From positions 34,376 to 66,375 of the forward strand of contig NZ_LWLG01000013.1 of NCBI RefSeq assembly GCF_001652585.1: a stretch of DNA of 32,000 bases, read 5' to 3'. The position numbers and the translations under genes are program-made. The notes beneath the pieces were generated by a model that was not told the DNA's origin, made no database searches, and saw only the letters and a program-made list of their open reading frames with translations. The first letter of the stretch is position 1. Each line of letters begins with the position of its first letter. Of the stretch, positions 5,406 to 26,651 are shown in pieces. Origin of the DNA: Thermosulfurimonas dismutans (GTDB lineage Bacteria > Desulfobacterota > Thermodesulfobacteria > Thermodesulfobacteriales > Thermodesulfobacteriaceae).

Positions 5406-5407
5406 GA

Positions 5408-6205: not shown

Positions 6206-6209
6206 TATT

Positions 6210-7058: not shown

Positions 7059-8717
7059 TTAGTCTTCGAAAACTGCTCCTTTGGCCCCTGAACTTACCAG
7101 TTTTGCGTATCGGGCAAGGACTCCGGAAACCTTTTTCTTTTTGGGCCTCCAGGCCTTGCGCCGAGTAGAAAGTTCATCCTCCGAGACCAAGAGCTCTAGT
7201 TTCCTCTCCGGAATATCTATCCGGATACGATCTCCATCTTTTACCAAGGCGATGGGGCCACCTTCGGCGGCCTCAGGAGAAACATGCCCGATACAGGCCC
7301 CCTGAGTACCACCGCTGAAACGTCCGTCCGTAATCAAAGCCACTGAGGAACCGAGTCCCATACCAATGATGGCTGAAGTGGGAGACAGCATTTCCCGCAT
7401 CCCGGGACCGCCCTTGGGTCCCTCGTAACGAATGACCACCACATCCCCCGGCTTTATCTTTCCACCAAGAATGGCCCGGTAGGCCTCCTCCTCGGAATCA
7501 AAAACTCGGGCTGGCCCCTCATGTTTCATCATTTCGGGAACCACGGCACTGGTCTTGACCACCGCCCCCTCCGGAGCCAGATTTCCCCAAAGTATGGCAA
7601 TACCCCCTTCCTCTCGATAAGCCTTCTCTACGGGCCTTATAACTTCGGGATTGAGGATGCAGGCCTCTTTTAGGATTTCTTTGAGTTTTTTACCTGTGCT
7701 GGTAAGCACACCGGTCTCTATCACCCCCACTTTGGTCAGCTCCGCCATGACCGCCGGTATGCCCCCGGCCTCATGAAGTTCGGGCACACTGTAAGGCCCG
7801 GAAGGGATAAGGCTCGCCAAAACTGGCGTCTTGCGGGAGATCTCGTCAAAGACCTCAAGAGGGAGCTCAAGACCCGCCTCCCGAGCGATGGCCGGTACAT
7901 GAAGGACGGTGTTGGTGGAACAGCCCAAGGCCATGTCCACCGCGATGGCATTACGAAAGGCCTCCGCAGTAGCGATCTTACGGGGGGTGATCCTCTTTTT
8001 AAGGAGTTCGACCACCTTCATCCCGGTCCTTTTGGCCAGACGTAGTCTTTCAGCCGTGACCGCTGGTATGGTCCCGTTTCCGGGAAGCGCCAAACCTAGA
8101 GCCTCGGAAAGGCAGTTCATGGAATTGGCCGTAAACATCCCGGCACAGGAACCGCAAGTAGGACAGGCACATTCCTCAAGCTCCGCTAGGTCCTCCTCGG
8201 TCATCTCTCCGGCCTTGACCCGCCCCACGCCTTCAAAGACCGAAATGAGATTGACCTTGCGTCCGCGGAAACTGCCGGTAAGCATGGGGCCGCCGGAGAC
8301 GAGAAGAGCCGGGATATTGAGCCTCAAAGCCGCCATGAGCATCCCCGGGGTGATCTTGTCACAGCTTGAGACCAGGACCAGGGCGTCAAAGGCATGGGCC
8401 TGAGTCATGATCTCTATGGCATCGGCGATTATTTCACGGCTCACCAGAGAATAGCGCATGCCTTCGTGGTTCATGGCAATGCCATCGCAGACCCCGATAA
8501 CCCCAAACTCAATCGGAACCCCTCCGGCCATCCGTACCCCGGCCTTAACGGCTTCGGTAATCTGACGGAGGTGCATGTGGCCGGGAACAATTTCATTAAA
8601 GGAATTGGCAATCCCTATTAAAGGTTTCTTGAGCTCCTCATCCGTGAGGCCTAAGGCCTTCAAAAGGGATCGGTGAGGGGCCCTTTCCAGCCCCTTCTTG
8701 ACACGATCACTCCGCAT
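7059..8717 (-). CDS. ilvD: Dihydroxy-acid dehydratase
   Basis: '[14 protein letters not shown]', '[16 protein letters not shown]', 'TDGRFSGGT'. Start placed at ATG 8717 with AGGAGG 7 nt upstream, not the TTG at 8735. Confidence 0.95.
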
Positions 8718-8826
8718 ATCTAAACCTCCTCCCAAGTTTCAATCACTATAATAATCTTCTTTATAACACCCTTGCTTTTTCAATAAAAGCGGTTAACTTT
8801 AGGCCAAATTGAAAAGGGGGTTCATT

Positions 8827-9051
8827 ATGCGAGAAGAGGTCGAGGCCGCTCTGGCCAAAGTCAGGCCCATGCTTCAGGCCGATGGTGGAGACGTGGAGCT
8901 GGTGGACATCACGGAGGATGGGGTGGTAAAGGTTCGTCTCCGTGGGGCCTGCGGGACCTGTCCCATGTCTCAGATGACCCTTAAGATGGGTATTGAACGT
9001 TACCTCAAAAAAGAAGTCCCAGAGGTCAAGGCTGTAGAAGCCGTAATGTAA
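8827..9051 (+). CDS. NifU C-terminal-domain (Nfu-like) Fe-S cluster protein
   Basis: '[15 protein letters not shown]...[14 protein letters not shown]'. Start at ATG 8827 after 'aaaaggggg'. Confidence 0.85.
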
Positions 9052-9063
9052 GGAGGTTGCGGG

Positions 9064-9327
9064 ATGGCCCGCGTTACAGTTGAAGATTGTCTAGAAAAGG
9101 TTCCCAGCCGCTTTAGACTTATTCATTTAACGGTAGAGCGGGTAAGACAACTGCGCAAGGGGGCCAAACCCCTGGTAGAATGTGATAACCGCGAAATTGT
9201 GACCGCTCTCAGGGAAATTGCGGCTGGTAAGGTAACCTTCGAAAATATCAAAGAATTGGCCAAGGAAGCCGAAGACTTCTCCATTTCTGACCTTCTTGAA
9301 GGTAAAGGGCCCGGTAAAGAGTCGTGA
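9064..9327 (+). CDS. rpoZ: DNA-directed RNA polymerase subunit omega
   Basis: '[30 protein letters not shown]' is a typical RpoZ N-terminus; 87 aa. Confidence 0.85.
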
Positions 9328-10445
9328 AGGAAAAAGACTACTATGCCATCCTGGGAGTTTCACGTAACGCCACCCAGGAGGAGATTAAAAAGGCCTACCG
9401 GCGTCTGGCGTTAAAATACCATCCCGACCGCAATCCTGGAGACCGGGAAGCGGAGGAACGGTTCAAGGAAATCTCCGAGGCCTATGAAGTTCTTTCGGAT
9501 CCTCAGAAAAGGGCCATCTATGATTCTCAGGGATTCTCTGGCCTACATCGGACGGGTTTTCGTGGTTTCGAAGACGTAGAGGACATCTTTTCTGCCTTTT
9601 CTGATCTCTTTGAAGAGTTCTTCGGTTTCGGCTTTAAAGAGAAACCAGGCCGACGCCCCAGGTCCGGAGCTGATCTCTCCTACGAGATCTCGCTCACCCT
9701 TGAGGAAGTCTATCGAGGCAAGGAAACCGAGGTTACCCTTGAGCTTTATCAAAAATGCGAGGAATGTGCGGGTTCAGGATTGGCGCCCGGGGCCGGCCCA
9801 CGGTATTGCCCGGTTTGTAAAGGCCGGGGGCATATCGTGCATTCGGAGGGCTTTTTTAGGCTGAGCACCACTTGTCCGCATTGTCACGGGATGGGCACTT
9901 ACGTTTCCGATCCCTGCCCCAAGTGTCACGGTGAAGGTCGGATCTGGGGGCGTAAAAAACTCCGAGTCAAGATTCCTCCCGGGGTAGAAGAAGGTTCTCT
10001 TATCCGCATTCCCGGTGAGGGCGAGGCCGGACTATATGGTGGTCCCCCGGGGGACCTCTATCTTAAGGTAAGGATCAAACCTCACGAATATTTCCGCCGG
10101 GAAGGCAAAGATCTTCATCTTGATCTCGTGGTCGGTGTGGTGGACGCCATCCTCGGAGCCGAAACAGAAGTCACCCATCTTTCCGGGGAAAGGATCAAGA
10201 TCAAGATTCCCAAGGGAAGTCAACCCGGAGATCGCATCACTATAAAGGGTAAAGGACTTCCGGATTCCCGCGGGGGGGCTCCCGGAGACCTTATCGTCCA
10301 TCTTCAAGTAAAGCTACCTTCCAAAGTAAATCGGGAGCAGGAAGAGCTTCTCCGACGGTTCGCCGAACTCGAAAAGGAAAAGGCCCCCAGGATTAAATCG
10401 CAACGCAAGAAGAGCTTTCTAGGAAAAATTTTCGGAGAAGCCTGA
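9324..10445 (+). CDS. dnaJ: Molecular chaperone DnaJ
   Basis: J-domain with 'YHPDRNP'; G/F-rich linker; four CxxCxGxG motifs ([32 protein letters not shown]). GTG start overlaps the rpoZ stop (GTGA). Confidence 0.9.
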
Positions 10446-10948
10446 TGGCATTTACGCATCTTGCCGAAGACGGTTCAGCCCGGATGGTGGATGTCTCCGA
10501 GAAAGTCCCTACGGCTAGGGAGGCCGTGGCTCGGGGACGGGTCATCTTGGGAGACAAAGTTTTTCCTCTAGTAAAAGACCGCAATCTTCCCAAAGGGGAC
10601 CTTTTCGGCGCTGCCCGGATCGCCGGAATACTAGCGGCCAAAAAAACCCCGGAACTCATCCCTCTCTGTCATCCTCTACCCATAAGCAAGATCGAAATCC
10701 ATTTTGCCCTGAACGAAGCGGAAAAAAGTCTTGAAATCGAGGCCCGGGTGAAAACCGTAGCCCAGACCGGAGTGGAAATGGAGGCCCTTACGGCCGTATC
10801 AGTAGCTGCCCTTACGATCTATGACATGTGTAAAGGTATTGACAAAGGGATACGGATAACGGATATTCGCCTTCTTGAGAAAAGAGGGGGCAAGAGCGGA
10901 GAGATCATTCTGGAAAAAGGAGGACTTCATGGATCCCAAAAAGCTTGA
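10445..10948 (+). CDS. moaC: Cyclic pyranopterin monophosphate synthase accessory protein MoaC
   Basis: 'MVDVSEK', 'LIPLCHPLP', 'GVEMEALTAVSVAALTIYDMCK'. Confidence 0.9.
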   Translation: MAFTHLAEDGSARMVDVSEKVPTAREAVARGRVILGDKVFPLVKDRNLPKGDLFGAARIAGILAAKKTPELIPLCHPLPISKIEIHFALNEAEKSLEIEARVKTVAQTGVEMEALTAVSVAALTIYDMCKGIDKGIRITDIRLLEKRGGKSGEIILEKGGLHGSQKA

Positions 10949-11291
10949 ATACTTCAAAAACCTCCTGCTTGAAAAGAGGCAAAAACTAGTTCAGGAAGCC
11001 GATCGCACCTTTCATTCTCTTGAAGGGGGGAGCGAACGCCTGGCTGATCCTACGGATATCGCCTCCAAGGAAAGTGATCTTGGTTTTGAACTCCGCATTC
11101 GTGACCGGGAGCGCAAACTTATCAGGAAGATAGACAAGGCCCTGCAGAAGATTGAAGAAGGGTCTTACGGGATCTGTGAGGCCTGCGGAGAGGAGATTGA
11201 GGAAAAGCGTCTCATGGCCCGTCCGGAGGCCACTCTCTGCATCCGCTGCAAACGAGAGCAGGAGCGTCTGGAGAAACTTCGCGGAGAATAG
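10929..11291 (+). CDS. DksA/TraR-family C4 zinc-finger protein
   Basis: 'CEACGEEIEEKRLMARPEATLCIRCK'. Start at ATG 10929, preceded by 'aaaggagga'. Overlaps the moaC 3' end by 20 nt. Confidence 0.8.
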   Translation: MDPKKLEYFKNLLLEKRQKLVQEADRTFHSLEGGSERLADPTDIASKESDLGFELRIRDRERKLIRKIDKALQKIEEGSYGICEACGEEIEEKRLMARPEATLCIRCKREQERLEKLRGE

Positions 11292-11297
11292 CCTAAA

Positions 11298-12293
11298 GTG
11301 CCGGAATTCCGGCGAGACCCTGTAAGCGGTCGCTGGGCCATCATCGCCCCCGAGAGAGGAAAAAGGCCTACTGATTTCCTTCTCCCTGAAGAAAATACCA
11401 AAGAGGGACGTTGTCCTCTATGCCCTGGGAGTGAAGACCTCACTCCTCCGGAAGTGCTAGCCCTTGGAAGACCTGAAGAAGCCCCACCTAATAGCCCCGG
11501 ATGGAAGGTAAGGGTTGTCCCTAACAAATATCCGGCCCTCATACCCGGAGAAATAGAAAAAGAAACGGAGGGGCTTTATGAAAGGTTTTCCGGGGCGGGG
11601 GTTCACGAGGTCATCGTAGAAACCCCGGAACACGGAAAGTCTCTGGTCAGGTTCAGTCCCAACGAGCTGGCCCTGGTCTTCGAGGCCTACCGTTTGAGAC
11701 TTGAGGAGCTGGCTCGAGACGGGCGATGGCGATATGTACTTATCTTCAAGAATCGAGGTGCCCGGGCTGGAGCCTCTCTGAGTCACGATCACAGCCAGCT
11801 CGTGGCTCTGCCCCTGATCCCGGAGTTGGTAAAAATTGAACTCGAAAGAAGCCGGATCTATCATGAAAGGAATGGAGAATGCCTTTTCTGTAAGCTCGTC
11901 AAAAGTGAACAGAATGGCCCCCGGCGGATTTGCGAAAACGAACGTTTTTTGGCCTTTATGGCCTACGCCCCCAGACAACCACTTGAGACCTGGATTATGC
12001 CTAAAAAGCACCGCAGCGACTTCCTAGACCATTTCGACGAAAACCTCGAGGCATTGTGTGATATTTTTCTCAAGGTCTTCGGAAAGCTTGAGGCCATTCT
12101 TCCGGGGTTGCCTTACAATTTTGTACTGCACACTGCCCCCCTCGGAAGCGCTCCCCTGCCCTACTATCACTGGCACTTTGAAATCATTCCTTGTCTAACC
12201 CGGGTGGCGGGCTTTGAATGGGGTACCGGGGCCTATATCGTGCCCTTGCTTCCCGAGGAGGCCGCGGCCTTTTTGCGTGATATCTCTCCATGA
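11298..12293 (+). CDS. galT: GalT-family (HIT superfamily) hexose-1-phosphate nucleotidyltransferase
   Basis: Zn site 'CPLCPG'; active-site 'SHDHSQ' (the HxHxQ of GalT); 331 aa. Confidence 0.7.
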   Translation: MPEFRRDPVSGRWAIIAPERGKRPTDFLLPEENTKEGRCPLCPGSEDLTPPEVLALGRPEEAPPNSPGWKVRVVPNKYPALIPGEIEKETEGLYERFSGAGVHEVIVETPEHGKSLVRFSPNELALVFEAYRLRLEELARDGRWRYVLIFKNRGARAGASLSHDHSQLVALPLIPELVKIELERSRIYHERNGECLFCKLVKSEQNGPRRICENERFLAFMAYAPRQPLETWIMPKKHRSDFLDHFDENLEALCDIFLKVFGKLEAILPGLPYNFVLHTAPLGSAPLPYYHWHFEIIPCLTRVAGFEWGTGAYIVPLLPEEAAAFLRDISP

Positions 12294-12925
12294 ATCGCAA
12301 ATTATTCCAAAACGAAATCCGAAAAATTGTCCCCGAGCTTAACGAGACTCAACTAGAGAAGCTCTTCCTTTATGCCGAACTCCTGCAAGAGGTAGCCTAC
12401 GCCCTAGGCCTCAGCAATTTGTCTCGAGAAGCGGACATCCTCGAAAAACACCTCCTCGACAGCCTCATGCTACTTCCCCATCTACCGGAAGGTCCCTTCT
12501 GTGATCTTGGAAGTGGCGCCGGGCTTCCGGGAATACCCCTAAAGATCGTCCGCCCCGAAACCGAGGTCTATCTGGTAGACTCCCGCCGGAAGGCCGTGTC
12601 CTTTTTGGAGTACGCCGCAGCAAGACTAGGTCTCGAAAGATTGGAGATCCTAAAAGCCCGGGTCGAGGCCCCCGAGGTGCCCCGCGAATACTTCGCCGCT
12701 GTGGTCTCCCGAGCGGTGACCGCCCTCTCCGAACTCTGGGATTTGGCCTACCCCCTCCTGAGACCCGGAGGAAAACTTCTGGCCTTAAAGGGCCCGCGTG
12801 GAAGAGAAGAGGTAGAGGCCTTACAGGAAAGACATCCGAAGCTTCCCATCCGGAGTCATCCCTACGAGCTCCCTTGCGGAAGACCCGGAACGGTGGTGGA
12901 GGTGCTCAAATCGTCTCCCAGTTAA
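12290..12925 (+). CDS. rsmG: 16S rRNA (guanine527-N7)-methyltransferase RsmG/GidB
   Basis: SAM motif 'DLGSGAGLPGIPLKI'; typical size. ATGA overlap with the upstream gene. Confidence 0.85.
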   Translation: MNRKLFQNEIRKIVPELNETQLEKLFLYAELLQEVAYALGLSNLSREADILEKHLLDSLMLLPHLPEGPFCDLGSGAGLPGIPLKIVRPETEVYLVDSRRKAVSFLEYAAARLGLERLEILKARVEAPEVPREYFAAVVSRAVTALSELWDLAYPLLRPGGKLLALKGPRGREEVEALQERHPKLPIRSHPYELPCGRPGTVVEVLKSSPS

Positions 12926-13139
12926 GACAGTTGGGACAAACCCAAGTGATGGCGTTACAAGAAAAGTGCTTCTGATCCTGGGATAGACATCGCTGACAAA
13001 CCGTAAAACCGCACTTCCGGCAGCGCCAAACCAGGGGCATCTCCTGGCCGCAGAACTCACATTTCCCAGCCCCGTATTTAGTCCTTCTAAAGGCTCGCAT
13101 CTTTGCGCCTGGCTTTGAGTTTGGCATCGTGAGCCGCAA
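12906..13139 (-). CDS. Cys-rich small protein (multiple CxxC, zinc-ribbon-like), hypothetical
   Basis: 'CEFCGQ..RCRKCGFTVCQRC...CPNC'. An alternative ATG at 13100 would reduce the overlap with the upstream kinase gene. Confidence 0.5.
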   Translation of the reverse strand: MRLTMPNSKPGAKMRAFRRTKYGAGKCEFCGQEMPLVWRCRKCGFTVCQRCLSQDQKHFSCNAITWVCPNCLNWETI

Positions 13140-13839
13140 TCTTGGCGATCTTTTTTTCTAACTTAATAAGTCTTTTTTCCTCCGAAAGCCAGGGGTGATA
13201 ACGAAAATAGGCCTCCAGAAACGCTTTTTCAAACTCTCGGGTTCCCGGCCCTAGAATCTGCCTGGCAGAATAAAAAAGTTCGGCGAGGTCCTTAATGACC
13301 CAGTAGGGTTTGATTTTGCGGGCTCTACGCACTCGCTGGAGATCGATCATAAAGAGTCTTTTTCCGTCCCAAAACAGATGACAAAGATAGAAATCTTGGT
13401 GGGAAAACCCCAGGGCATGAAAACGGGCCGCGGTCTCCACCAGGGGCGGAAGGAGTTTGCGGAAGAGCTCCGGACTCTCTTTAAAGAGGTCCTCAAGACG
13501 TCTTCCGGGGACCTCGCGAAACAGGCTCAAGGCCCGATGACGCCTCAGGCCGCGCTCAAGGCCAAAGGCGACGGGCTCCGGCACATGAAAACCATGGGCA
13601 GAAAGTTCCCTGGCCGCCCACCATTCCCTCTCGGCTCCACTCTTGAGAAAGCCAAAGAGTGGAAATCGAAAATACCGCTTCAAAAAAAAGCGATCGTCTC
13701 CAAGCTCAAGTAGGGCTATCTCCCGATCCTTCTTGGATTTGAAGGGCTTGGTGGGAGCCTTCCAGAGAGCTTCAAAGGTGACCAATCCCTGACCTTTAAG
13801 TAATTCTTGCCAGCGCGGGCTGATCTCAAATATCGTCAT
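13087..13839 (-). CDS. Lipopolysaccharide kinase (Kdo/WaaP)-family protein
   Basis: Catalytic-loop-like 'SHQDFYLCHLFWD' resembles WaaP/RfaP 'HRDCYICHFLL'. 250 aa. 4-nt overlap with the radical SAM gene. Confidence 0.7.
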   Translation of the reverse strand: MTIFEISPRWQELLKGQGLVTFEALWKAPTKPFKSKKDREIALLELGDDRFFLKRYFRFPLFGFLKSGAEREWWAARELSAHGFHVPEPVAFGLERGLRRHRALSLFREVPGRRLEDLFKESPELFRKLLPPLVETAARFHALGFSHQDFYLCHLFWDGKRLFMIDLQRVRRARKIKPYWVIKDLAELFYSARQILGPGTREFEKAFLEAYFRYHPWLSEEKRLIKLEKKIAKIAAHDAKLKARRKDASL

Positions 13840-15134
13840 GCCGACAACTCCCGGACATATCTTTTGAGCTCCTCTATAGCCTCCCAGTCCGGACTTTTGA
13901 AGGCCGGAAAGACGGAGTTATTGTGAAAGATAGGGTCCTCGGAAAGAGGATATCGCGAAATCCTTTCGGTCTCCTCGAAAAGAGGTGTCCCCGGAATAGG
14001 GGAAAATTCCGCAAGTACGGGTCTGGCCCCGGCCTGAGCCACGAACTCCGCGGCCTTCTTTACCTCCGCAAGGGTTTGCCCCGGAAGACCGAAGAGGAGA
14101 TAGGCCCCTAACTCCCTGGCCGTAAAACCGGCCTCCCTTAAATAGGCCACCGCCTGCCCAAACTCCTCCTCGTTCACTTTACGATCGAGCCTCTGCCCCA
14201 CGGTCTCAAGTCCTAGCCGCAGGGTAACAAATCCGGACTGCTTGAGAAACCCCGCCACCTCTCGGTTGATGAACCGCGCATGCAGGGCATTGGGCGTATG
14301 GAAGCGGACTCTAATTCCGGCTGAAAGGACGCCCTCCAGGATGACTGCCAGATGGTTCTCAAAGTCAAGAAGAAGGGCATCGTCGTAAAAGGCAAAATCC
14401 ACTACCCCGTAATGCTCGTGCCAGTAAAGGATCTCAGAGACAACCTCCTCCGGAGACCGCCTCTCAAAATCCGGAAATAGTCTCGTCGAGGCACAATAGG
14501 GACACCGAAAGGGACAGCCCCTTCCAGTAAGAAGGACAACATAGGGTATTTGCCGCTGGAGATCAAAGATTGGAAAGGAATGGGAATTAGGCTCACCTGT
14601 AGGATCGCAAAGTTCAGAGATCCTCTTCAAGATCCTTTCCTCGGCGTGCTCGGTTATGATCTCAGCCCCGGGAAAGATCTCCCTGGCGTGTTCCGGGCAG
14701 AGGCGAGCGTAAACTCCTCCAAGAAGCACGGGAGTATCTGGGAAACGGCTCCTGAGCAGCCGGAAGGCCTCAAGGGTCCCAGGATACCAGTAGGTGAGCA
14801 GACAGGTGATGAGGATGACTTTCGGGGGTTTGAGACCGGCCACTTCTTTCTCGGCCAATTTTCTGGGAAGCCCGTAGCGGGCCAAACGCCGGGGCACGTC
14901 TTCGAAGAAGATCGGCTTGGGGACCTCCTCTCGCCAGAAATGGCCGGTACCATAGGCCCGGCGTTTCGGCTTTCGGGGAAGCTCGGGGTGGAAGGGATCC
15001 AGAAGATCCAGAAATTCTACTCGATACCCTTCTTTCCTGAGAAGACCACCAAGTCTTAAAAGCCCGTAGGGTCTCAGCCAGAAATCGTAGGCCGCAAAGT
15101 CATAGATCCAAGGATTGACTAACAGAACATCCAC
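13836..15134 (-). CDS. B12-binding-domain radical SAM protein
   Basis: 'GRGCPFRCPYCAS' (CxxxCxxC). The N-terminal 'VDVLLVNPW...' is a typical class-B rSAM start. Start set to GTG 15134 because codons upstream (to ATG 15200) merely translate a tRNA fragment. Confidence 0.85.
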   Translation of the reverse strand: MDVLLVNPWIYDFAAYDFWLRPYGLLRLGGLLRKEGYRVEFLDLLDPFHPELPRKPKRRAYGTGHFWREEVPKPIFFEDVPRRLARYGLPRKLAEKEVAGLKPPKVILITCLLTYWYPGTLEAFRLLRSRFPDTPVLLGGVYARLCPEHAREIFPGAEIITEHAEERILKRISELCDPTGEPNSHSFPIFDLQRQIPYVVLLTGRGCPFRCPYCASTRLFPDFERRSPEEVVSEILYWHEHYGVVDFAFYDDALLLDFENHLAVILEGVLSAGIRVRFHTPNALHARFINREVAGFLKQSGFVTLRLGLETVGQRLDRKVNEEEFGQAVAYLREAGFTARELGAYLLFGLPGQTLAEVKKAAEFVAQAGARPVLAEFSPIPGTPLFEETERISRYPLSEDPIFHNNSVFPAFKSPDWEAIEELKRYVRELSA

Positions 15135-15144: not shown

Positions 15145-15188
15145 TGGCGGCCCCACCGGGACTCGAACCCGGGTCTCTGGCGTGAGAG
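15145..15188 (-). tRNA. Truncated tRNA-Glu(CUC)-like 3' fragment (anticodon loop to CCA); not an intact gene; putative att remnant at the island boundary
   Basis: The minus strand reads CTCTCAC-GCCAG-AGAC-CCGGG-TTCGAGT-CCCGG-TGGGGCC-G-CCA. These parts are the anticodon loop (CU-CUC-AC), 3' anticodon stem, 4-nt variable loop, perfect T-arm, 3' acceptor strand, discriminator G and CCA. No complementary CTGGC or GGCCCCA lies upstream. Confidence 0.8.
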
Positions 15189-15203
15189 TAGGATTCGCAT
15201 TTC

Positions 15204-15230
15204 TCAATCTTAATCAATCTCATTCAATCT
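15204..15230. repeat. Three direct TCAATCT heptamers spaced exactly 10 bp apart
   Basis: TCAATCT at 15204-15210, 15214-15220 and 15224-15230, 16 bp from the tRNA-fragment edge. Confidence 0.9.
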
Positions 15231-15391
15231 TGCGATTTTAACGGGTGCTAATCGCCATGGTGGTTATAAAATTCCATTTTACGGCCACCAATATGGACAC
15301 CAAGCCCGGAACTTTTAAGTATCAAGGCTTTGTGGTCTTGAAGTGATTTTCAGTTAAGCGAAAATAATCGGCCGGAATCTGGTTTGACATT

Positions 15392-15622
15392 TTATAGAAG
15401 GTTATCAAGCTCATCAAGGCTTATTCCAGCGGCTTTAAGAATACATTTGAGGGTTTTGGGAGCTAGAATTTTTCCGCTATGAACCGGTATGGTAACCAAG
15501 ACTTCTTTCTCGTCATGATAGAGATGGTAGTGGCTTCCTTTGATTCGGACTATTCGGAAATCTGCTCGCTGTAAAGCTTTTACTAGGTCTTTCCCGGTGA
15601 TCCTAGGCAGCTTTCTGCTCAA
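15392..15622 (-). CDS. hicA: HicA-family mRNA interferase toxin
   Basis: 'LPRITGKDLVKALQRADFRIVRIKGSHYHLYH' (YcfA/HicA fold signature). TTG start. Overlaps hicB by 20 nt. Confidence 0.85.
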   Translation of the reverse strand: MSRKLPRITGKDLVKALQRADFRIVRIKGSHYHLYHDEKEVLVTIPVHSGKILAPKTLKCILKAAGISLDELDNLL

Positions 15623-15821
15623 ATTCGACCTCTATTTCGGCCTGAAAAGACTTTCTGAGTTCTGTCAGGGCTTCAAGGTGTCCTTCGATGGCTTCTTTGG
15701 CATTTCCTATGGCTTCTTCGATAGTGTCTCCCTGAGTGACGCATCCCGGAAGATCCGGGACCGTGACCGTGAAGCCGCCTTCTTCATTGGGCTCGATCAC
15801 AATTTTATAACGAAGTGTCAT
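15603..15821 (-). CDS. hicB: HicB-family antitoxin
   Basis: 'YKIVIEPNEEGGFTVTVPDLPGCVTQGDTIEEAIGNAKEAI'. ATG 15821 is preceded by 'ggagaagagaag'. Confidence 0.85.
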   Translation of the reverse strand: MTLRYKIVIEPNEEGGFTVTVPDLPGCVTQGDTIEEAIGNAKEAIEGHLEALTELRKSFQAEIEVEFEQKAA

Positions 15822-15896
15822 CTTCTCTTCTCCTGTTTTTGGGATTCGTTTTATCATTTTAGATAAAATTCAGACGGATTTGAAGTTTGAATTTGC

Positions 15897-16097
15897 TCAT
15901 CCGGTATCGATTTCCCGGAGCAAGTGCGCAGGCAGGTCAATAAAGGCAAAAAAATCTTTTGGGTAGAGGTAAGGTTCTCCACTTTCGTCTATGACTTTGA
16001 GGAGGCCGTATTCCTCTCCGAGGACGGGATAAACTTTCCACTTTTCGAGAGAAAGCTCATAGCCCTGGTTTTTGATGCAAAGGGCGATCTTACTCAT
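15897..16097 (-). CDS. Hypothetical small protein (66 aa)
   Basis: Clean ORF with an ATG start and no motif I can name. Confidence 0.45.
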   Translation of the reverse strand: MSKIALCIKNQGYELSLEKWKVYPVLGEEYGLLKVIDESGEPYLYPKDFFAFIDLPAHLLREIDTG

Positions 16098-16741: not shown

Positions 16742-18573
16742 TTAGCCGCTCGAAAGCCTCTGAGTAAGCCTTTTCCACCAGCGAAAGCCTTTCTTCTCAT
16801 CCTCCAGATCCAGAAAGTTCTTAAATCTTTGGGCGTCCAAGAGGACTACCCCTTTGGTTTCCACCACCACGCCCGAGGGAAGATAGTTTACCAGCGAATC
16901 CTTATCCGGCCGGGAATGTTCCAAGAAGGCCCGGGTGATATCAAAGTACTCCCGACCGTCAATTTTTATAGTCTTTGCAAACAGTTCCTGGTGGGCGTGG
17001 TAAAAGGTAAACCAGGCCCGGCGGGCTCGCTCCCGATAGTAAAGATCTACAAGCCTTTCCTCCGTAAACCACCTCGGCCGATCCAGATCCAATTCCTCAA
17101 AATACTCCAGAAAGATTTCCCTGGCAGGTTTTAAGAAGTCTTCGGGGAAAAAGATTTCTTTCTGCCGGAATCTTCGTTCGAGTCTGAAAACGAAATCTCG
17201 GAAGAGGTCCTCTTCAAGACGGTATTCCCGTTTTACTCTCTGAGGAAACGGGACGGAAAGTGGAAGATAGTAGATTCGGCGCATGACCTCCGGAGGGGCG
17301 TGGAAGTCCTTCTCGTTTCCGGTGGCCAGGAAACAGGCATGGGGGCCGGAGAAGGTGTTGGCCATCTCTTTGATGAACTGCACGCCTTCGTATGATCTTT
17401 CCGAAGTGGTGGTGAAGTACTGCCGTTTAACCTCGTCCACCAGGACGGGAAAGAGATTTCCGTTGGTAAGAAGAAGATAAATACCGCGCGAGTTGATTTT
17501 TCCGGCCGGGAATTTGGCCTTGGGAGTATAATGGTAATGAAGGCCGTGGTTTCCCAGAAGACGACTTATGGCACGCAGAAGAAAGGTCTTTCCGGAGCCG
17601 GCCGCCCCTGCGATATAAAGGAAGATGGGTACTTCCGCTAGATACTCTTCCCCCAGAAGGGAAGCCTCTTTGCGAATGAGCCACAGAAAGGGCGACATGA
17701 AGGCGTAAAGGACGGCCTCGAAGGCAATGCGGCTAGCCCGCTCTTCGCCGGTAAGCTCGGAGTAGGAGCTCAAAAACTCATTAAGTCCCTGAAAAACCGT
17801 CTGGAGCCTCTCCAGAGGAAGCTCCCTTCCCAGAGGCTCGCCATTTCTGAAAAGTCCTTCCTCACGCCATTGGAATCTAGGCCTATCGTCCTCGAATTCC
17901 CTGGTCTCCTGGACGGTTCGCTTGAGCACCCGGAAAAGGGCCTCTTTTTTCGCATAAACCTCTCTGGGGGAGATAAGGATGGCCCCGGATTCCGTGCGCT
18001 TGGTTATGACCCGAAAAACCTCAAGGAGCTTTCTTTGTTCGCGGACGTTTTCCTCTTTTTCTTTGATCTTCTTTTCCATCTCTTCCAGAGAGTCTTTTAA
18101 GTGAGCTTCCACAAGGAGGGTTTTCACCTCCCCGATACGGTCGGCAAAAAACTCCAGGGTTTCCTTGTCTTTGACCAATAAGGCTTCAGGGAGTTTCTTT
18201 TTCTTTTGGAGAAAATCTTTAGGGAATAGGGGACGAGAAGATTTCTTTAAATGTCTTAGTACCTTTTCAAAGAGGGCAAATTTGGACGGATTCTCTTCTT
18301 CATCAAAGACTTCGAGGATCTCCCATTGGCGTCCGCCAAGGGCTCTCTCGGTGAGGTTGGCGCTTCCCCAGATAAGCCTGCGCCCAGTCTCACCTTTTAA
18401 GAGAAAGATTTTGGCATGACTGGCTTCAAAGGGTACCAATACTTGGTAATCTCCTTTGGAGAGTTTTTCGAGAATTTGGGCGTTGGCCGAAACTTCTTCA
18501 AAGAGTCGGCGATTTTCCTCCGGTTCAAAAAAGGCCGCAAGTCCTCGCGCCGATTCCGGGAAACCTACTATGA
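16742..18573 (-). pseudogene. C-terminal 608 codons of an IS-split PLD-nuclease / P-loop NTPase fusion gene
   Basis: HKD-type motif 'HAKIFLLKGETGRRLIWGSANLT'; coiled-coil-like K/E-rich linker; Walker A 'IAGAAGSGKT'; Walker B 'FPVLVDEV'; 'FLATGNE'. The first ~33 codons of the listed ORF (18574-18673) are IS-derived. Confidence 0.85.
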
Positions 18574-19830
18574 GGGACTGTCCACCCGTTTGTGTAAATT
18601 TCATTATAGCCGGTCCTCGAAGAGAATTGCTATCTGGCCGTATATCTGAGGCCAGCCCTTGATCTGGGCCCATTTCCGCTCAAGCTCCATAGCTGCCATG
18701 TACAAGCACTTTAACAGGGATTCTTCCGTCGGAAATACCCGTCTTCCGGCCGTAGCCTTACGAAATTTACTATTTACGCTCTCTATAATATTTGTCGTGT
18801 ACATTACTCGCCTAATCTCCACAGGATACCTGAAAAAGGCTGTAAGAGCCTCCCAGTTCGCCTGCCAGCTCTTCACTACGTGAGGGTATTTACTCCCCCA
18901 TTTCTCCGAAAAAGCCTCCAGCTCCCTCTCCGCCGCCTCAAGCGTGGCCGCCCCATAGATCCTCTTGAGATCCCGAGCTATTTCACGTCTCTCTTTCCAA
19001 GCCACATACCTCAAGGAATTCCTGATCTGATGCACTATGCATCTCTGGATATCCGCCCTCGGGTAAACCGCCCCTATGGCCTTCTCAAGCCCAGAAAGCC
19101 CATCCACGCTGAAAATGAAAACATCCTTCACCCCTCGAGACTTTAGGTCGTTCAATACACCAAGCCAAAATCGGCTCGATTCTGTCCCGTTTATCCAAAA
19201 ACCTAAAATCTCCTTATAACCCTCAAGATCGAGTCCTATCGCCACATATACCGCCTTGTTCCTTACCTGCCCCTCCTCCCTGGCTTTATAGAAAATACAG
19301 TCTATCCAAATCAAAAAATACTTCTCCTTGAGCGGCCTCGAACGCCATTCCTCTATCTCCGGAAGTAGCCGATCCGTAATCTTGGAAATCAAAGAAGGAC
19401 TTACGTCAAAACCATACATCTCCGAAAGGATCTCCTGGATATCCCTGGTACTCATACCTTTGGCGTAAAGGGCTACAATCTGGTTTTCGATCTCATCCAG
19501 CATAGTCTGGCGCTTCCTGACTATTTGAGGCTCAAATTCGCCCTTCCGATCCCTGGGAACCTTGATCTCCAGGGCCCCGGAAGAGGTCTTAATCGTCTTG
19601 GAACTGTAGCCGTTCCGGGAATTGTCGGTATCCGAGCGCTCGTATCTCCCGTAGCCCAAAAACTCCTCTAGTTCGGCCTCAAGGGCTTCCCTCAAAGTAC
19701 GCCGGACAAGTTCCTTAATGGTGGCCTGCACTTCTTCGGGCTGAGGTGCCTTCTTGGCTCTTGCCATAGTGTCCACCCTCCTTTTGTAATTTGCTTATTC
19801 TAAAATCTCCACAGTTGGGTGGACACTCCC
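18574..19830 (-). mobile_element. IS256-family insertion sequence, copy 1 (1257 bp), intact
   Basis: Imperfect terminal IRs: GGGACTGTCCACCCGTTTGTGTAAATTTCA (18574-18603) versus the complement of 19801-19830, GGGAGTGTCCACCCAACTGTGGAGATTTTA (23/30 match). Perfect 8-bp TSD TACTATGA at 18566-18573 and 19831-19838. Confidence 0.95.
18604..19776 (-). CDS. IS256/Mutator-family transposase (390 aa)
   Basis: 'NGYSSKTIKTSSGALEIKVPRDRKGEF', 'VDGLSGLEKAI', 'IQRCIVHQIRNS', 'YTTNIIESVNSKFRK'. Confidence 0.95.
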   Translation of the reverse strand: MDTMARAKKAPQPEEVQATIKELVRRTLREALEAELEEFLGYGRYERSDTDNSRNGYSSKTIKTSSGALEIKVPRDRKGEFEPQIVRKRQTMLDEIENQIVALYAKGMSTRDIQEILSEMYGFDVSPSLISKITDRLLPEIEEWRSRPLKEKYFLIWIDCIFYKAREEGQVRNKAVYVAIGLDLEGYKEILGFWINGTESSRFWLGVLNDLKSRGVKDVFIFSVDGLSGLEKAIGAVYPRADIQRCIVHQIRNSLRYVAWKERREIARDLKRIYGAATLEAAERELEAFSEKWGSKYPHVVKSWQANWEALTAFFRYPVEIRRVMYTTNIIESVNSKFRKATAGRRVFPTEESLLKCLYMAAMELERKWAQIKGWPQIYGQIAILFEDRL

Positions 19831-20058
19831 TACTATGAAACACAATTTTTCGAAACCAAGATTCAGGAAGAACTCCAAGGCCTTTCTTATGGAGGCCGAA
19901 TAGGTGAGCACCAGGGCCTCCTGATAGCCTGCCACTAAACTCTGAGGGTCTCCAGAGAACTCCCGCCCTTTATATAAGATCTTGAGACGGCTCTCCGAAG
20001 TGTTTTCAAAAAGCCCCGCCATCCTTTTCATCTTGAGGTCTTTTTGTTGTTTTGACAA
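19831..20058 (-). pseudogene. N-terminal 76 codons of the IS-split PLD-nuclease / P-loop NTPase gene
   Basis: Reads '...LVLTYSASIRKALEFFLNLGFEKLCFIV' up to the TSD. It joins in frame to 18565 once the IS and one TSD copy are removed. The start is ambiguous (TTG 20058, ATG 20031 or ATG 20022). Confidence 0.8.
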
Positions 20059-20079
20059 GGCGTCGCTTGGAGTTATATT
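20052..20079 (+). promoter_or_regulatory. Near-consensus sigma-70-type promoter for the plus-strand operon
   Basis: TTGACA (20052-20057), 16-nt spacer, TATATT (20074-20079), 24 nt upstream of ATG 20103. Confidence 0.4.
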
Positions 20080-20102
20080 CAGAAAATCAACTCATAGAAC
20101 CT

Positions 20103-20855
20103 ATGGCACTTGACGAAAAGATTCTCTATCGCATTTTTTCCGAGCTTTTTCCGGATGAGACGGTTGAAAATTGGGCCTTTCTCGGAGACGGCTTTACGCC
20201 TTTTGCGGACTGGAGGCGAGCCGCCGGCCCCAAAAGAGAGCTTTGCTTTCTTATCAAAACCTGCGATCCTCGAAAGTTTATCGTAAAAGCCGAGGATATT
20301 CTCGGTTCCCATTGCCGCATAGCCAAGCTCGATGAGGCCATGGGGGTCTATTCTTTCTGGGTAGGCTGGTGCGAGACGCCGATCTTTGCGGTCTCCTTTT
20401 TCGTGCCGTTTTCGGACCCGTGGCGGAAAAAGCTCTTTGAGAGGATTTTTTACGGAGATAAGGAAAAATTTCACTATTGCAAACTATTCAATCATGGGGT
20501 GCGTCTCCTTCCGGACGAAGACTTTGGGGTTCTTTCCGTGGCCCTCGGAAGACAGGTAAGACGCCCACTTGATGGATTTTACGCTCTGGTGCTGGCCTCA
20601 AATGACCGAGCCACGGCCGAGAGAATCGAGGAGCTTGCGGGGATTCTTAAAATTTTAGAAAAGTTGAAAATCTTGGAAAAGAAGGCTTCTTTATTCAATT
20701 TAGCCAAAAACAGAATGGAAAGTTACAAGGATCGTGGTATCAATCGGTTTTTTTATTTTTGGGACTATGAGGAGCGCTGGTTACGGAGCGCGAAAGCCGA
20801 AGAAGTAAGAATGTTAAAGCGTATGAAAAGCTCCCTGCTTTTCAAAGACGACTAG
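20103..20855 (+). CDS. Hypothetical protein (250 aa), first gene of the operon
   Basis: ATG 20103 chosen because the TTG at 20052 coincides with the predicted -35 box. No recognisable motif. 5-nt gap to the next gene. Confidence 0.6.
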   Translation: MALDEKILYRIFSELFPDETVENWAFLGDGFTPFADWRRAAGPKRELCFLIKTCDPRKFIVKAEDILGSHCRIAKLDEAMGVYSFWVGWCETPIFAVSFFVPFSDPWRKKLFERIFYGDKEKFHYCKLFNHGVRLLPDEDFGVLSVALGRQVRRPLDGFYALVLASNDRATAERIEELAGILKILEKLKILEKKASLFNLAKNRMESYKDRGINRFFYFWDYEERWLRSAKAEEVRMLKRMKSSLLFKDD

Positions 20856-20860
20856 GAGTT

Positions 20861-21583
20861 ATGCTAGCCTTTGCCGCGGACATTCACGGCGAGTGGCGCA
20901 GGCTTTACGAGAACCTCCCTCAGGAGGTGGAAGCGGTTTTCATCTGCGGGGACGCTGAAATGGTTCGCTCTGAGGAGGATTTGGCGCTTATACCGGCTCC
21001 CAAGAAGCATCTAAAGCTCGGAGATTTTCATTTCTTTTGGGAGCGGGGCGAGGTTCCCGTTCCGACCTATGTCCTTCTTGGAAACCACGAGCCGTACCTG
21101 TGGCTCTGGGAGCACGAAAAAAACGGACCGACGGAGGTCATTAAGAACCTATGGGTGCTGGCACGGTCGGGAGTTATTGAGCTTTGCGGGCTAAAGATTG
21201 CTTATCTTGGCAGGGTTTTTGCCCCTACTACCTATTTTGAAGGGCGAGTATGGAATCCAGAGAAAGACAAGAGGTCCAAAAAGTCGAAGCTTGCGAGCCG
21301 TTTTACACCGGAAGATGTAGAAAGACTCATTTCAGAGGCGGCTAAAGTGGAAGATGTCGATGTACTCGCTCTCCACGAAAATCCGAATTATTGCAAGGAC
21401 GCACGAGGAAGAGAAGTCTATCGGAATATTGTTGAGCTTGTGAGACCGAAACTCATCATTTGCGGACATATGCATCGTCTTTTACTGGAAACTTTTTCTG
21501 GTGTTCCTATTTTTGGGCTTCCATATGGGATTCCAGTCACTTGGCAAAAAATCGAGTGTTCGATGGAAAACACAAATCTTTGA
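20861..21583 (+). CDS. Calcineurin-fold metallophosphoesterase, Dbr1 (debranching enzyme)-like, paralog 1
   Basis: Motifs 'ADIHGE', 'CGDAE', 'LGNHEP', 'ALHENP', 'CGHMH'. The block 'GDAEMVRSEEDLALIPAPKKHLKLGDFHFFW' resembles the Dbr1 region '[31 protein letters not shown]' (from memory). Confidence 0.7.
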   Translation: MLAFAADIHGEWRRLYENLPQEVEAVFICGDAEMVRSEEDLALIPAPKKHLKLGDFHFFWERGEVPVPTYVLLGNHEPYLWLWEHEKNGPTEVIKNLWVLARSGVIELCGLKIAYLGRVFAPTTYFEGRVWNPEKDKRSKKSKLASRFTPEDVERLISEAAKVEDVDVLALHENPNYCKDARGREVYRNIVELVRPKLIICGHMHRLLLETFSGVPIFGLPYGIPVTWQKIECSMENTNL

Positions 21584-21635
21584 GCGCTAATTCGACCTCG
21601 ATGTTTCGTCCAAGCCGATAAGTTTTCAATAGGCT

Positions 21636-22505
21636 ATGCATTTCGCAGTCATCGGTGATGTTCACGGGCGATTTGAGTTGCTGGCAAGGGTGCTTGCGGT
21701 CCTGCGCGACCGCTACGGGGTAGAACTCGCCTTTCAGGTGGGCGACTTGGCCTTTCTATCCTCAAGCGACCCCAAGTACCTCAAGGCCCTGAAGATGGCC
21801 GGGCCGCAAACTCCGCCCCTCATTTACGACGTTTTTGATGATGAAGTCCAAGCCATAAGGTTCCTCCACGGCGACATCGAGCTTCCCGTCCCGGTCTACT
21901 TCGTAGGCGGAAATCACGAGGACTGGCCGTACTTAGACTTCGTGGAAGAGAAGATGCGCGAGCAGGGGATAGCACCGCCCTACGAGATTGCGCCGAACCT
22001 CTTTTTCCTGGGAAAGGCGAGCGTGGTGGAGGTGTCCGAAATGCGGGTCGTCACCCTTTCAGGGATCTACGACCGCCTCAAGTGGGAGCTCTGCGTGACC
22101 TCACCGCGGAAGCTCTACTACCACAACCAAGAAGACGAAGAGGCGCTTCTCTTCCATGCGCCCGGGGCGGACCTTTTCATCGCGCACGAGTGGCCGGTGA
22201 AGCTCGCTTCGGGCGCAACCTGGGAGGAGGCCATTTACGCAGCCGTCGGCTCTCCCACGGTGGACCGGCTCATCCACCACTTTCGGCCCGCGCTTTCGTT
22301 CCACGGGCACATGCACCGCTACGCGCAGGGCATTCGCGGCCCCATGGGAGAGCGGCCCACGAAGTGGGTGGGCCTGGACATGCTCATCGTGGACCACTAC
22401 CACAGAGTCCGCAATGTGGCCCTTTGCGAGTTCGAGGGGCCGGGTGCGGTGAGGCTCCTTTTTACCGCGGAGGCGAGGAAACTCTTAAAGGACGCTTCCG
22501 CTTAG
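21636..22505 (+). CDS. Calcineurin-fold metallophosphoesterase, Dbr1 (debranching enzyme)-like, paralog 2
   Basis: Motifs 'IGDVHGR', 'VGDLAF', 'GGNHED', 'IAHEWP', 'HGHMH'. 'APNLFFLGKASVV...LSGIY' and 'GSPTVDRLIHHFRPALSFHGHMH' parallel recalled human DBR1 blocks. The gene is clearly more GC-rich than its neighbour. Confidence 0.7.
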   Translation: MHFAVIGDVHGRFELLARVLAVLRDRYGVELAFQVGDLAFLSSSDPKYLKALKMAGPQTPPLIYDVFDDEVQAIRFLHGDIELPVPVYFVGGNHEDWPYLDFVEEKMREQGIAPPYEIAPNLFFLGKASVVEVSEMRVVTLSGIYDRLKWELCVTSPRKLYYHNQEDEEALLFHAPGADLFIAHEWPVKLASGATWEEAIYAAVGSPTVDRLIHHFRPALSFHGHMHRYAQGIRGPMGERPTKWVGLDMLIVDHYHRVRNVALCEFEGPGAVRLLFTAEARKLLKDASA

Positions 22506-22514
22506 GAGAGCACG

Positions 22515-22886
22515 ATGTCAACCCGAGACCTTTTGCGGTTTGCAAGAGAAGTGGAAAAGAGCCGTCCCCGACTGAGGCGGGTCCTCAAGGTGGAGGAGCT
22601 TTATACCGAGTACCTCACGCGTCTTCCCCGCCTTCCGGTGGTGCGGGCCGGTTTCGAGGTCCTCAACGAATTTAATCTCCGCATCGTTTCCCCGAAAGCG
22701 CTTATTGCGGTGCTCCTCTGTCTTCCCGAGCGCTCAATGGACCTCTCTGCTTTCGTGCGGGTGCTTCCCGAAGTCTTTCCAGAGGATCTTTCCAGAGCCC
22801 TGCAAGTCCTTTCGGGGGACCCCGGGGTGCTTGCAGTGGTTCTCTACGGTTCAAGGGCTCGAGGAGATGCTCGGCCGGATTCGGAC
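22515..22886 (+). pseudogene. NTase-domain protein (~100-aa N-terminal extension plus a minimal nucleotidyltransferase motif), 3'-truncated by an IS
   Basis: 'VLAVVLYGSRARGDARPDSD' is the MNT/Pol-beta-type GS-x9-D-x-D motif. It is cut directly after DSD by the IS inverted repeat starting at 22887/22888. The listed ORF tail 'WGGIQFCVSGE*' is IS sequence. Confidence 0.75.
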
Positions 22887-22887
22887 T

Positions 22888-24416: not shown

Positions 24417-24465
24417 TTAGACTTTTTTCTAGAATTCTATTTAGTGGAAGGGTTGGGAGAAGAAA

Positions 24466-26536: not shown

Positions 26537-26642
26537 ATTAATCTCAACTTATGAGAGTAAATGAAAATTGCAGTAATAGCTAATTGTTAAGCTAAACTAT
26601 TAGAGTGTTAAAACTTTTTGATTTTGAATCTAAATAACTTTT

Positions 26643-26651
26643 GGGGGGGGG
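26643..26651 (+). repeat. Homopolymeric G9 tract in the manC ribosome-binding region
   Basis: Nine consecutive G at 26643-26651, 6 nt upstream of ATG 26658. Confidence 0.95.

What the first reader, a model, noticed from the sequence alone, without database searches (positions are those of the whole stretch)
15145..15188. A 44-nt tRNA-Glu(CUC) 3' fragment marks an att-type boundary between core genome and accessory island
The minus strand gives a textbook 3' portion of a tRNA: anticodon loop CUCUCAC, stem GCCAG, 4-nt variable loop, T-arm CCGGG-TTCGAGT-CCCGG, acceptor TGGGGCC, discriminator G and CCA. E. coli tRNA-Glu shares the 4-nt variable loop and the G discriminator. No 5' half exists upstream. 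Homology to a tRNA breaks at the anticodon loop, a classic crossover position for tyrosine integrases. Established model: the intact tRNA sits at the far end of the element and the duplicated 3' fragment keeps the original downstream flank, here the radical SAM operon. The element should therefore extend rightwards from 15189 for at least 16.8 kb, and gene content changes exactly there. No integrase is visible in the window.
Basis: partly seen in the sequence, partly recalled or inferred. Interest (0 to 1): 0.65.

Follow-up and report, generated by a model that had tools for sequence, protein, structure and literature searches.

The report
Displaced tRNA-Glu fragment marking island edge
The 44 bases are a real leftover 3' piece of a glutamate tRNA gene, left behind when a mobile element inserted into that gene, so they mark where the conserved chromosome ends and imported DNA begins; this is a textbook case, not a new mechanism.

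Summary
Window 15145-15188 (- strand) is identical over 44/44 nt to the 3' part, anticodon loop through CCA, of the intact tRNA-Glu(CUC) genes of related Thermodesulfobacteriota. No 5' half and no tRNA gene occur anywhere in the window.

In relatives, the intact tRNA sits at this position, 8-12 nt upstream of the same B12-radical-SAM gene. A contig 97% identical to the window still carries tRNA nt 19-31 where the window has foreign DNA.

A relative, L020, holds a complete element of the same family:
- an intact tRNA-Glu followed by a tyrosine integrase;
- a perfect direct repeat that starts at the same nucleotide, C32;
- a 200-nt right arm that is 76% identical to window 15189-15390, with the same GGTGTCCA repeat pair 113 nt from the core.

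The fragment is therefore the attR core of a tyrosine-integrase element of the common anticodon-loop class.

Three things are not shown. The intact tRNA and the integrase of this island lie outside the window, and the source contig is withheld. It is also unknown whether all 16.8 kb to the right belong to one element. Only about 15189-16140 is demonstrably element DNA. The rest is a mosaic of insertion sequences, toxin-antitoxin genes and sugar-nucleotide genes. This is an ordinary finding of low interest.

The parts
15145..15188 (-). attR core: the displaced 3' 44 nt (nt 32-76, anticodon loop to CCA) of tRNA-Glu(CUC).
   Evidence: It is 44/44 identical to intact tRNA-Glu(CUC) genes in L002-L014, L020 and L028. 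It has the same left boundary as the perfect attL/attR repeat of L020.
15189..15391 (-). Right arm (P arm) of the integrated element, non-coding.
   Evidence: 76% identical over 247 nt, core included, to L020 5083-5328, the arm preceding attR1 of a complete element. It is also homologous to L006 4270-4473.
15282..15301 (-). Tandem pair GGTGTCCATATTGGTGGCCG, presumed arm-type integrase binding sites. The first copy starts 113 nt from the core.
   Evidence: It is the only such pair in the window (0.02 expected). L020's attR has the same pair at the same distance. Pairs with 12-nt spacing lie 31-59 nt after the tRNA in every integrase-bearing attL of the family, including those at tRNA-Lys and tRNA-Arg. 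That these are binding sites is an inference.
13836..15134 (-). B12-binding radical-SAM gene: the original chromosomal flank downstream of the tRNA. True start is GTG 15134.
   Evidence: Synteny with L001-L005 and L014.
15392..15857 (-). hicB-hicA toxin-antitoxin pair inside the element's right end.
   Evidence: Pfam HicA_toxin at 9e-20 and HicB_lk_antitox at 4e-17. The pair is absent at the homologous position in L006 and L020.
15897..16097 (-). 66-aa ORF of unknown function, conserved near the right end of tRNA-Glu elements.
   Evidence: It has homologues at L006 4045-4275 and L020 5752-6009. Nucleotide matches cover window 15949-16138 at 76-79%. There is no Pfam hit. Homology to the relatives' elements ends near 16138.
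16742..20034 (-). Accessory PLD-like/P-loop gene (PF27394) split by an IS256-family insertion sequence at 18574-19828, with the 9-bp target duplication CTACTATGA.
   Evidence: It is 85-89% identical in DNA to L032, although core genes of that same genome assembly are only about 70% identical.
20052..32000 (.). Further accessory mosaic whose membership in the same element is not established. It holds two metallophosphoesterases, a nucleotidyltransferase, a Mutator-family transposase remnant, a PIN toxin, low-GC gmd and manC genes with a methyltransferase, an IS481 transposase, and the end of a second IS256 copy.
   Evidence: No uvrA, rsmD, integrase or tRNA is present.
1..13835 (.). Conserved core block, from the Mla transporter genes to the Kdo-kinase-like gene, syntenic with relatives.
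   Evidence: tblastn and blastn colinearity with L002 and L005, ending at 15188.

Best explanation
The 44 nt are the attR core. They are the original 3' part of the chromosomal tRNA-Glu(CUC) gene, which in this lineage lies between a divergent uvrA-family gene and a B12-binding radical-SAM gene.

The proposed mechanism is as follows. A mobile element carried an attP with its own copy of tRNA nt 32-76. That copy was flanked by arms bearing GGTGTCCA repeats. The element recombined with the tRNA gene through a tyrosine integrase, one with an N-terminal zinc ribbon, an Int_N domain and a PF00589 catalytic domain. Strand exchange took place at or just 3' of the start of the identity block, that is in the anticodon loop. 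This is the 'A' sublocation of Williams.

The element's copy regenerated the tRNA at the far end (attL), next to the integrase. The original 3' part stayed attached to its downstream flank, the radical-SAM gene, where we now see it.

What is shown: the identity to the tRNA, the boundary at C32, the empty sites, the polymorphism between close relatives, and the homology of the adjacent arm to the attR arm of a complete element.

What is inferred: the crossover position, integrase binding to the GGTGTCCA pairs, and the presence of an intact tRNA plus integrase beyond coordinate 32000.
For: 1. The block is 44/44 identical to intact tRNA-Glu(CUC) genes, and the window holds no 5' half and no tRNA gene.

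2. The intact tRNA occupies this position in L002-L005 and L014. The core block is colinear with those loci up to exactly window 15188.

3. L001 is 97.1% identical to the window over 4182 nt. Upstream of CTCTCAC it has tRNA nt 19-31, whereas the window has unrelated DNA.

4. L020 carries a tRNA-Glu at 171-246 and a 54-nt perfect direct repeat at 203-256 and 5285-5338 that starts at CTCTCAC. A third, decayed copy (69%) lies at 6052-6105, directly before the radical-SAM gene. The element between the perfect repeats carries an integrase disrupted by an IS256 copy, a Rep_1 replication protein, and a toxin-antitoxin pair.

5. Window 15145-15390 matches L020 5083-5328 at 76% identity, and the GGTGTCCA pair lies at the same distance from the core in both.

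6. Integrases of this family sit directly 3' of tRNA-Glu, tRNA-Lys or tRNA-Arg genes, always with the same repeat pair.

7. The DNA to the right of the junction has lower GC content and consists of insertion sequences, toxin-antitoxin genes and horizontally acquired genes.

8. The general principle, and the prevalence of 3' fragments and anticodon-centred attP sites, are documented: 3760 of 3919 islands have a 3' fragment and 2083 of 3919 have an anticodon-centred attP (PMC4383910).
Against: The window contains no tyrosine integrase (tblastn with three family members, best E = 0.004 and spurious). It also contains no intact tRNA.

The source contig, 66,375 nt, is withheld from the look-up tools. 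The attL partner of this island was therefore never seen.

Homology to known elements of the family stops at about 16138. Beyond that the region is broken up by at least four insertion-sequence copies or remnants, so it may not be a single element.

No other orphan copy of the 44-nt block turned up in the collections: all 14 hits were intact tRNAs. The only complete attL/attR example is L020.
Confidence: 0.9

Rival explanations
1. The fragment is a genuine attR, but of a relic. Under this reading only about 1 kb (15189 to about 16140) remains from the integrating element. The rest of the right-hand 16 kb would be later accretion: other islands in tandem, insertion-sequence-mediated insertions, or rearranged chromosome. 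The integrase and attL may then be far away, disrupted or lost. This differs from the main explanation only in the extent and integrity of the island.
For: Homology to the family's elements ends at 16138, where the partner small ORF is truncated. A weak IS3 OrfA remnant lies at 16389-16505. There are also one full IS256 copy, the end of a second one, a Mutator-family remnant and an IS481 copy. Relatives show every stage of decay: L006 has both arms but no integrase and no attR core, L014 keeps only about 80 nt of the left arm, and L020 has a tandem array with a decayed third repeat and an integrase disrupted by an IS. The PLD-like gene lies next to tRNA-His in another genome, so it moves independently.
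Against: The 44-nt block is still 100% identical to the functional tRNA, whereas the older copy in L020 has decayed to 69%. That argues for a recent integration event. The right arm with its repeat pair is intact.
Confidence: 0.4
2. The tRNA gene was truncated by an unrelated event, such as an IS insertion, a deletion or an inversion breakpoint. On this view the break at the anticodon loop is coincidental and no site-specific recombination was involved.
For: The region is rich in insertion sequences. No integrase is present in the window.
Against: The breakpoint coincides to the nucleotide with the start of the perfect attL/attR repeat in L020. The 200 nt abutting the fragment are homologous to the attR arm of that element and are not an IS end. 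The nearest IS terminal repeat is more than 3 kb away.
Confidence: 0.03
3. The resemblance to a tRNA is a chance or coding feature. On this view the 44 nt are simply the 5' end of the radical-SAM ORF that starts at ATG 15200.
For: The ORF 13836-15200 is open through the fragment. In L020 a gene caller produced a 460-aa product in the same way.
Against: Homologues are about 432 aa, and the query's first ~22 residues are not covered in any of them. Empty-site relatives have a full tRNA gene at this position. Identity of 44/44 to a tRNA cannot arise by chance.
Confidence: 0.01

Closest known systems
tDNA-integrated genomic islands as catalogued by Islander (Hudson, Lau and Williams 2015, PMC4383910), class with a 3' tDNA fragment and an anticodon-centred ('A') attP site
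   Same: The 3' fragment keeps the original downstream flank. The identity block runs from the anticodon loop to the 3' end of the tRNA. A tyrosine integrase lies next to the regenerated tRNA in homologous elements. Tandem arrays with decaying distal fragments occur, as in L020.
   Different: For this window the regenerated tRNA and the integrase were not seen. The island interior is heavily reworked by insertion sequences.
Lambda-type attP architecture: a core flanked by arms that carry arm-type integrase sites
   Same: Short repeats (GGTGTCCA, in pairs spaced by 12 nt and in inverted copies) lie on both arms at fixed distances from the core. They are conserved across elements that target different tRNAs.
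   Different: Binding was not tested. The integrase N-terminus carries a CxxC...CxxC zinc ribbon (Pfam DZR/Zn_Ribbon_1, weak hits). From my own knowledge, lambda Int has no zinc ribbon at its N-terminus.
Integrated rolling-circle plasmids and small integrative elements of thermophiles
   Same: The complete relative in L020 is a 5-kb element with a Rep_1 replication protein, an integrase and a toxin-antitoxin pair.
   Different: No Rep_1 homologue is present in the window. The window's cargo is different and much larger.

Membership tests
tRNA-gene-integrated genomic island (Islander definition, PMC4383910) | A fragment identical to the 3' part of a tRNA gene | tested here: met
   44/44 identity to intact tRNA-Glu(CUC) genes of relatives.
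tRNA-gene-integrated genomic island (Islander definition, PMC4383910) | An intact cognate tRNA gene in the same replicon and the same orientation as the fragment | not testable with these tools
   There is no tRNA in the window. The source contig and genome are withheld and are absent from the DNA collections.
tRNA-gene-integrated genomic island (Islander definition, PMC4383910) | A tyrosine integrase gene (PF00589) between the tRNA and the fragment | tested here: inconclusive
   None is present in the 16.8 kb of island visible in the window. One is present in homologous elements at the same site in L009, L011 and L020.
tRNA-gene-integrated genomic island (Islander definition, PMC4383910) | The fragment retains the original downstream flank, and empty sites exist in relatives | tested here: met
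   L002-L005 have the tRNA immediately upstream of the same radical-SAM gene. The 97%-identical relative L001 has more of the tRNA upstream of the block.
Anticodon-loop ('A') sublocation attP class (Williams 2002, as cited in PMC4383910) | The attP/attB identity block begins in the anticodon loop and extends to the tRNA 3' end | tested here: met
   The boundary is at C32 in the window, and it is the same in the perfect attL/attR repeat of L020.
Anticodon-loop ('A') sublocation attP class (Williams 2002, as cited in PMC4383910) | Strand exchange occurs within the 7-nt anticodon loop | not testable with these tools
   This needs in vitro recombination or sequence polymorphism between the att sites. 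All copies are identical across the block.
Zinc-ribbon tyrosine-integrase elements at tRNA-Glu, tRNA-Lys and tRNA-Arg of Thermodesulfobacteriota (a grouping made here) | Right arm homologous to that of a complete member | tested here: met
   76% identity over 247 nt to L020 5083-5328.
Zinc-ribbon tyrosine-integrase elements at tRNA-Glu, tRNA-Lys and tRNA-Arg of Thermodesulfobacteriota (a grouping made here) | A GGTGTCCA repeat pair with 12-nt spacing at a fixed distance from the core | tested here: met
   The pair is at 15282-15301, with the second copy degenerate (GGTGGCCG). It lies 113 nt from the core, as in L020.
Functional tRNA gene | A complete cloverleaf with acceptor 5' strand, D arm and anticodon stem | tested here: not met
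   ARAGORN and Rfam find nothing, and the 5' half is absent.

The most novel reading that the evidence does not exclude
The integrase family behind this junction may be a modular, thermophile-specific system. Its members have an N-terminal zinc ribbon and use the same GGTGTCCA arm-site pairs, while their cores are swapped among tRNA-Glu(CUC), tRNA-Lys(CTT) and tRNA-Arg(ACG). It would then be a set of closely related thermostable integrases whose target choice is set only by the 44-nt core. Such a set could be useful for targeted insertion in thermophiles. Separately, this genome may have lost attL, so that it lives without tRNA-Glu(CUC).
Probability: 0.3. Interest if true: 0.4.

Novelty: new member of a known kind. 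Interest (0 to 1): 0.22.

Why it matters
The junction gives a nucleotide-precise boundary, 15188/15189, between the conserved chromosome and acquired DNA in a poorly studied thermophilic lineage. It explains a likely annotation error, the radical-SAM gene being extended through the tRNA fragment. It also points to a family of tyrosine integrases that use tRNA-Glu, tRNA-Lys and tRNA-Arg genes in Thermodesulfobacteriota. It does not reveal a new mechanism: this is the commonest known way for islands to integrate.

Tried and rejected
- Rfam with permissive thresholds on 15000-15400 gave only a weak T-arm hit to tmRNA and a tRNA-like mascRNA hit (E = 0.84). These were not informative.
- The exact 44-nt block was scanned in reference genomes, metagenomes and viral contigs. 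It returned only intact tRNAs and no viral hits. No second orphan fragment and no copy of the source genome was found.
- Four look-ups by exact protein for window genes failed, including P0241, which the protein database lists as the window's own. The far end of the island could therefore not be reached.
- I tested whether L011/L020 continue the window's right end through the shared IS256 copy (96.8% identical). I rejected this because the orientation is wrong, and the window's flank there is an IS481 copy rather than an integrase.
- I looked for a decayed attR core in L014 and L006 and found none.
- Scans of island proteins against PADLOC and NCBIfam gave no defence-system or function assignment beyond generic domains.
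- The promoter and terminator scan around the junction was at background level.

Full report
**Observation**

On the minus strand, window 15188 to 15145 reads CTCTCAC-GCCAG-AGAC-CCGGG-TTCGAGT-CCCGG-TGGGGCC-G-CCA. This is the only copy in the window even when 3 mismatches are allowed, with 0 expected from shuffles. ARAGORN finds no tRNA in the 32 kb. Rfam finds nothing at gathering thresholds and only a weak T-arm match at permissive thresholds. The 5' half of the cognate tRNA is absent. A mechanical ORF (13836-15200, 454 aa) runs in frame through the fragment. The roughly 120 closest homologues are mostly 430-450 aa, and none of them covers the query's first ~22 residues. The radical-SAM gene therefore starts at GTG 15134, and the fragment is non-coding.

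**What the relatives show**

The radical-SAM protein places the window in the Thermodesulfobacteriota, among Thermosulfurimonas, Thermodesulfatator and Thermodesulfobacterium relatives. Contigs encoding the closest homologues are colinear with window positions from about 3800 up to 15188. In L002, L003, L004 and L005 an intact 76-nt tRNA-Glu(CUC) lies 8-12 nt upstream of the radical-SAM start. Its last 44 nt are identical to the window block. Upstream of that tRNA lies a divergent uvrA-family gene. The window contains no uvrA or rsmD homologue.

L001 is 97.1% identical to the window over 4182 nt. Its alignment with the window begins exactly at CTCTCAC. Upstream of that point L001 has CCTAGGATACTGGC, which is tRNA nt 19-31, whereas the window has GCGAATCCTA. 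A near-conspecific genome thus has the tRNA contiguous with the radical-SAM gene, and the window does not.

**The element**

Scanning the 44-nt block through reference genomes and metagenomes returned 14 loci, all of them intact tRNA-Glu(CUC) genes. The viral collection gave none. In L009 and L011 the tRNA is followed by a conserved arm of about 150 nt and then by a tyrosine integrase. The integrase has a zinc ribbon, an Int_N domain, a SAM-like domain and the PF00589 catalytic domain. It is frameshifted in L009 and cut by an IS256 copy in L011.

Homologues of this integrase led to L020, a 7460-nt contig. L020 holds a complete element:
- tRNA-Glu at 171-246;
- a 54-nt perfect direct repeat at 203-256 and 5285-5338, which starts at CTCTCAC;
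- a third copy, decayed to 69%, at 6052-6105, directly before the radical-SAM gene.

Between the perfect repeats lie the integrase (disrupted by an IS256 copy), a Rep_1 replication protein and a ParE/YoeB toxin-antitoxin pair. Between the second and third copies lie two small ORFs. L020 is thus a tandem array at the same chromosomal site.

Window 15145-15390 aligns with L020 5083-5328, that is the right arm plus the attR core, at 76% identity. The alignment runs right up to the core (...GAATCCTA|CTCTCAC in the window...GGATCCCA|CTCTCAC in L020). L006 carries the same arm, and the same small ORF as window 15897-16097, downstream of its intact tRNA-Glu. L006 has lost both the integrase and the attR core. 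L014 keeps only about 80 nt of the left arm between the tRNA and the radical-SAM gene.

**Arm repeats**

Every integrase-bearing attL of the family has a pair GGTGTCCA-N4-GGTGTCCA lying 31-59 nt after the tRNA end. Several also have inverted copies near the integrase start. This holds for elements at tRNA-Glu (L009, L020, L028), tRNA-Lys(CTT) (L026) and tRNA-Arg(ACG) (L029, L030). The right arms of L020 and of the window carry the pair 113 nt from the core. In the window it is at 15282-15301, with a degenerate second copy, and it is the only such pair in the 32 kb. I take these to be arm-type integrase binding sites. That is an inference from their conservation and position, not a tested fact.

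**Mechanism**

The data fit the established model (PMC4383910). An integrase recombines an attP that carries the 3' part of a tRNA gene with the chromosomal gene. The tRNA is regenerated at attL, beside the integrase, and the original 3' part is displaced to attR, where it keeps its downstream flank. In that survey, 3760 of 3919 islands have a 3' fragment and 2083 have an anticodon-centred attP. The C32-to-CCA block places this element in that class. The window block is still 100% identical to the tRNA, whereas the older copy in L020 has decayed to 69%. That suggests a fairly recent insertion, or continuing gene conversion.

**What lies to the right**

Synteny with relatives stops at 15188, and GC content drops from 0.55-0.57 to 0.45-0.47. 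The region contains, in order:
- hicBA;
- the 66-aa conserved ORF;
- possible IS3 debris;
- a PLD-like/P-loop gene (PF27394) split by an IS256 copy at 18574-19828, with the 9-bp duplication CTACTATGA;
- two metallophosphoesterases, a nucleotidyltransferase, a Mutator-family remnant and a PIN toxin;
- low-GC gmd, manC and methyltransferase genes;
- an IS481 transposase, and the start of a second IS256 copy.

The PLD-like gene is 85-89% identical in DNA to L032. Core genes of that same assembly (L003) are only about 70% identical to the window, so the gene was transferred recently. No integrase is present.

Homology to the relatives' tRNA-Glu elements ends near 16138. I can therefore assign only about 15189-16140 to the integrating element with confidence. 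The remaining ~16 kb is clearly accessory. It could be element cargo, older islands in tandem, or insertion-sequence-driven accretion.

**Limits**

The source contig is 66,375 nt according to the protein database, but it is withheld from the look-up tools. It is also absent from the DNA collections. The intact tRNA, the integrase and the size of this island remain predictions.

**Verdict**

The finding is a well-understood kind of feature, a new example in an understudied thermophilic lineage, and is of low general interest.

Noticed in passing
window 16742-20034 (-), with the IS at 18574-19828: A PLD-like/P-loop gene (PF27394; 675 aa in relatives) is split by an IS256-family element with the 9-bp target duplication CTACTATGA. 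The gene is 85-89% identical in DNA to L032 7523-9546, although core genes of that same genome assembly are only about 70% identical. This implies recent horizontal transfer. In L032 the gene lies about 1.2 kb from a tRNA-His.
   Followed up: partly
window 31531-32000: The left end of a second IS256-family copy starts at about 31597. It is 96.8% identical to the IS that disrupts the integrase in L020, L011, L021 and L023. It is preceded by a 66-nt partial duplicate of the same IS at 31531-31596.
   Followed up: partly
window 13836-15200 (-); L020 6020-7402: The open reading frame of the radical-SAM gene extends upstream through the tRNA fragment. In L020 a gene caller annotated the over-long product (460 aa, against about 432 aa for homologues). 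The same annotation artefact is likely here.
   Followed up: yes
window 15897-16097 (-); L006 3786-4275; L020 5511-6009: A pair of small overlapping ORFs (about 80 aa each, no Pfam hit) recurs near the right end of tRNA-Glu elements. In the window only the second ORF is intact, and the first is truncated near 16138. Their function is unknown.
   Followed up: partly
L009, L020, L026, L028, L029, L030 (regions between the tRNA and the integrase): One integrase family, with an N-terminal CxxC...CxxC zinc ribbon, sits 3' of tRNA-Glu(CUC), tRNA-Lys(CTT) or tRNA-Arg(ACG). In every case a GGTGTCCA pair spaced by 12 nt follows the tRNA. This suggests conserved arm sites combined with interchangeable cores.
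   Followed up: partly
L020 257-5284: The complete 5-kb element in this relative encodes a Rep_1 rolling-circle replication protein. It looks like an integrated small plasmid rather than a prophage.
   Followed up: no
L002 326-334; L020 247-256: In the 'empty' site of L002, the 9 nt after CCA (TTTTCAAAG) resemble the first bases of the element's left arm (TAATTTTCAAGG). This may be a trace of past excision, an extension of attB identity, or chance.
   Followed up: no
window 25511-28073: The gmd and manC genes sit in a stretch of 0.35-0.41 GC, against about 0.5 elsewhere, between transposase genes. This is probably a separately acquired surface-polysaccharide module.
   Followed up: no
L002, L005 and window 15134-15147: In this lineage the radical-SAM and Kdo-kinase-like gene pair starts only 8-12 nt after the tRNA's CCA. 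That implies co-transcription with the tRNA in empty-site genomes. In the window the gene must now be transcribed from within the island; hicBA points the same way.
   Followed up: no
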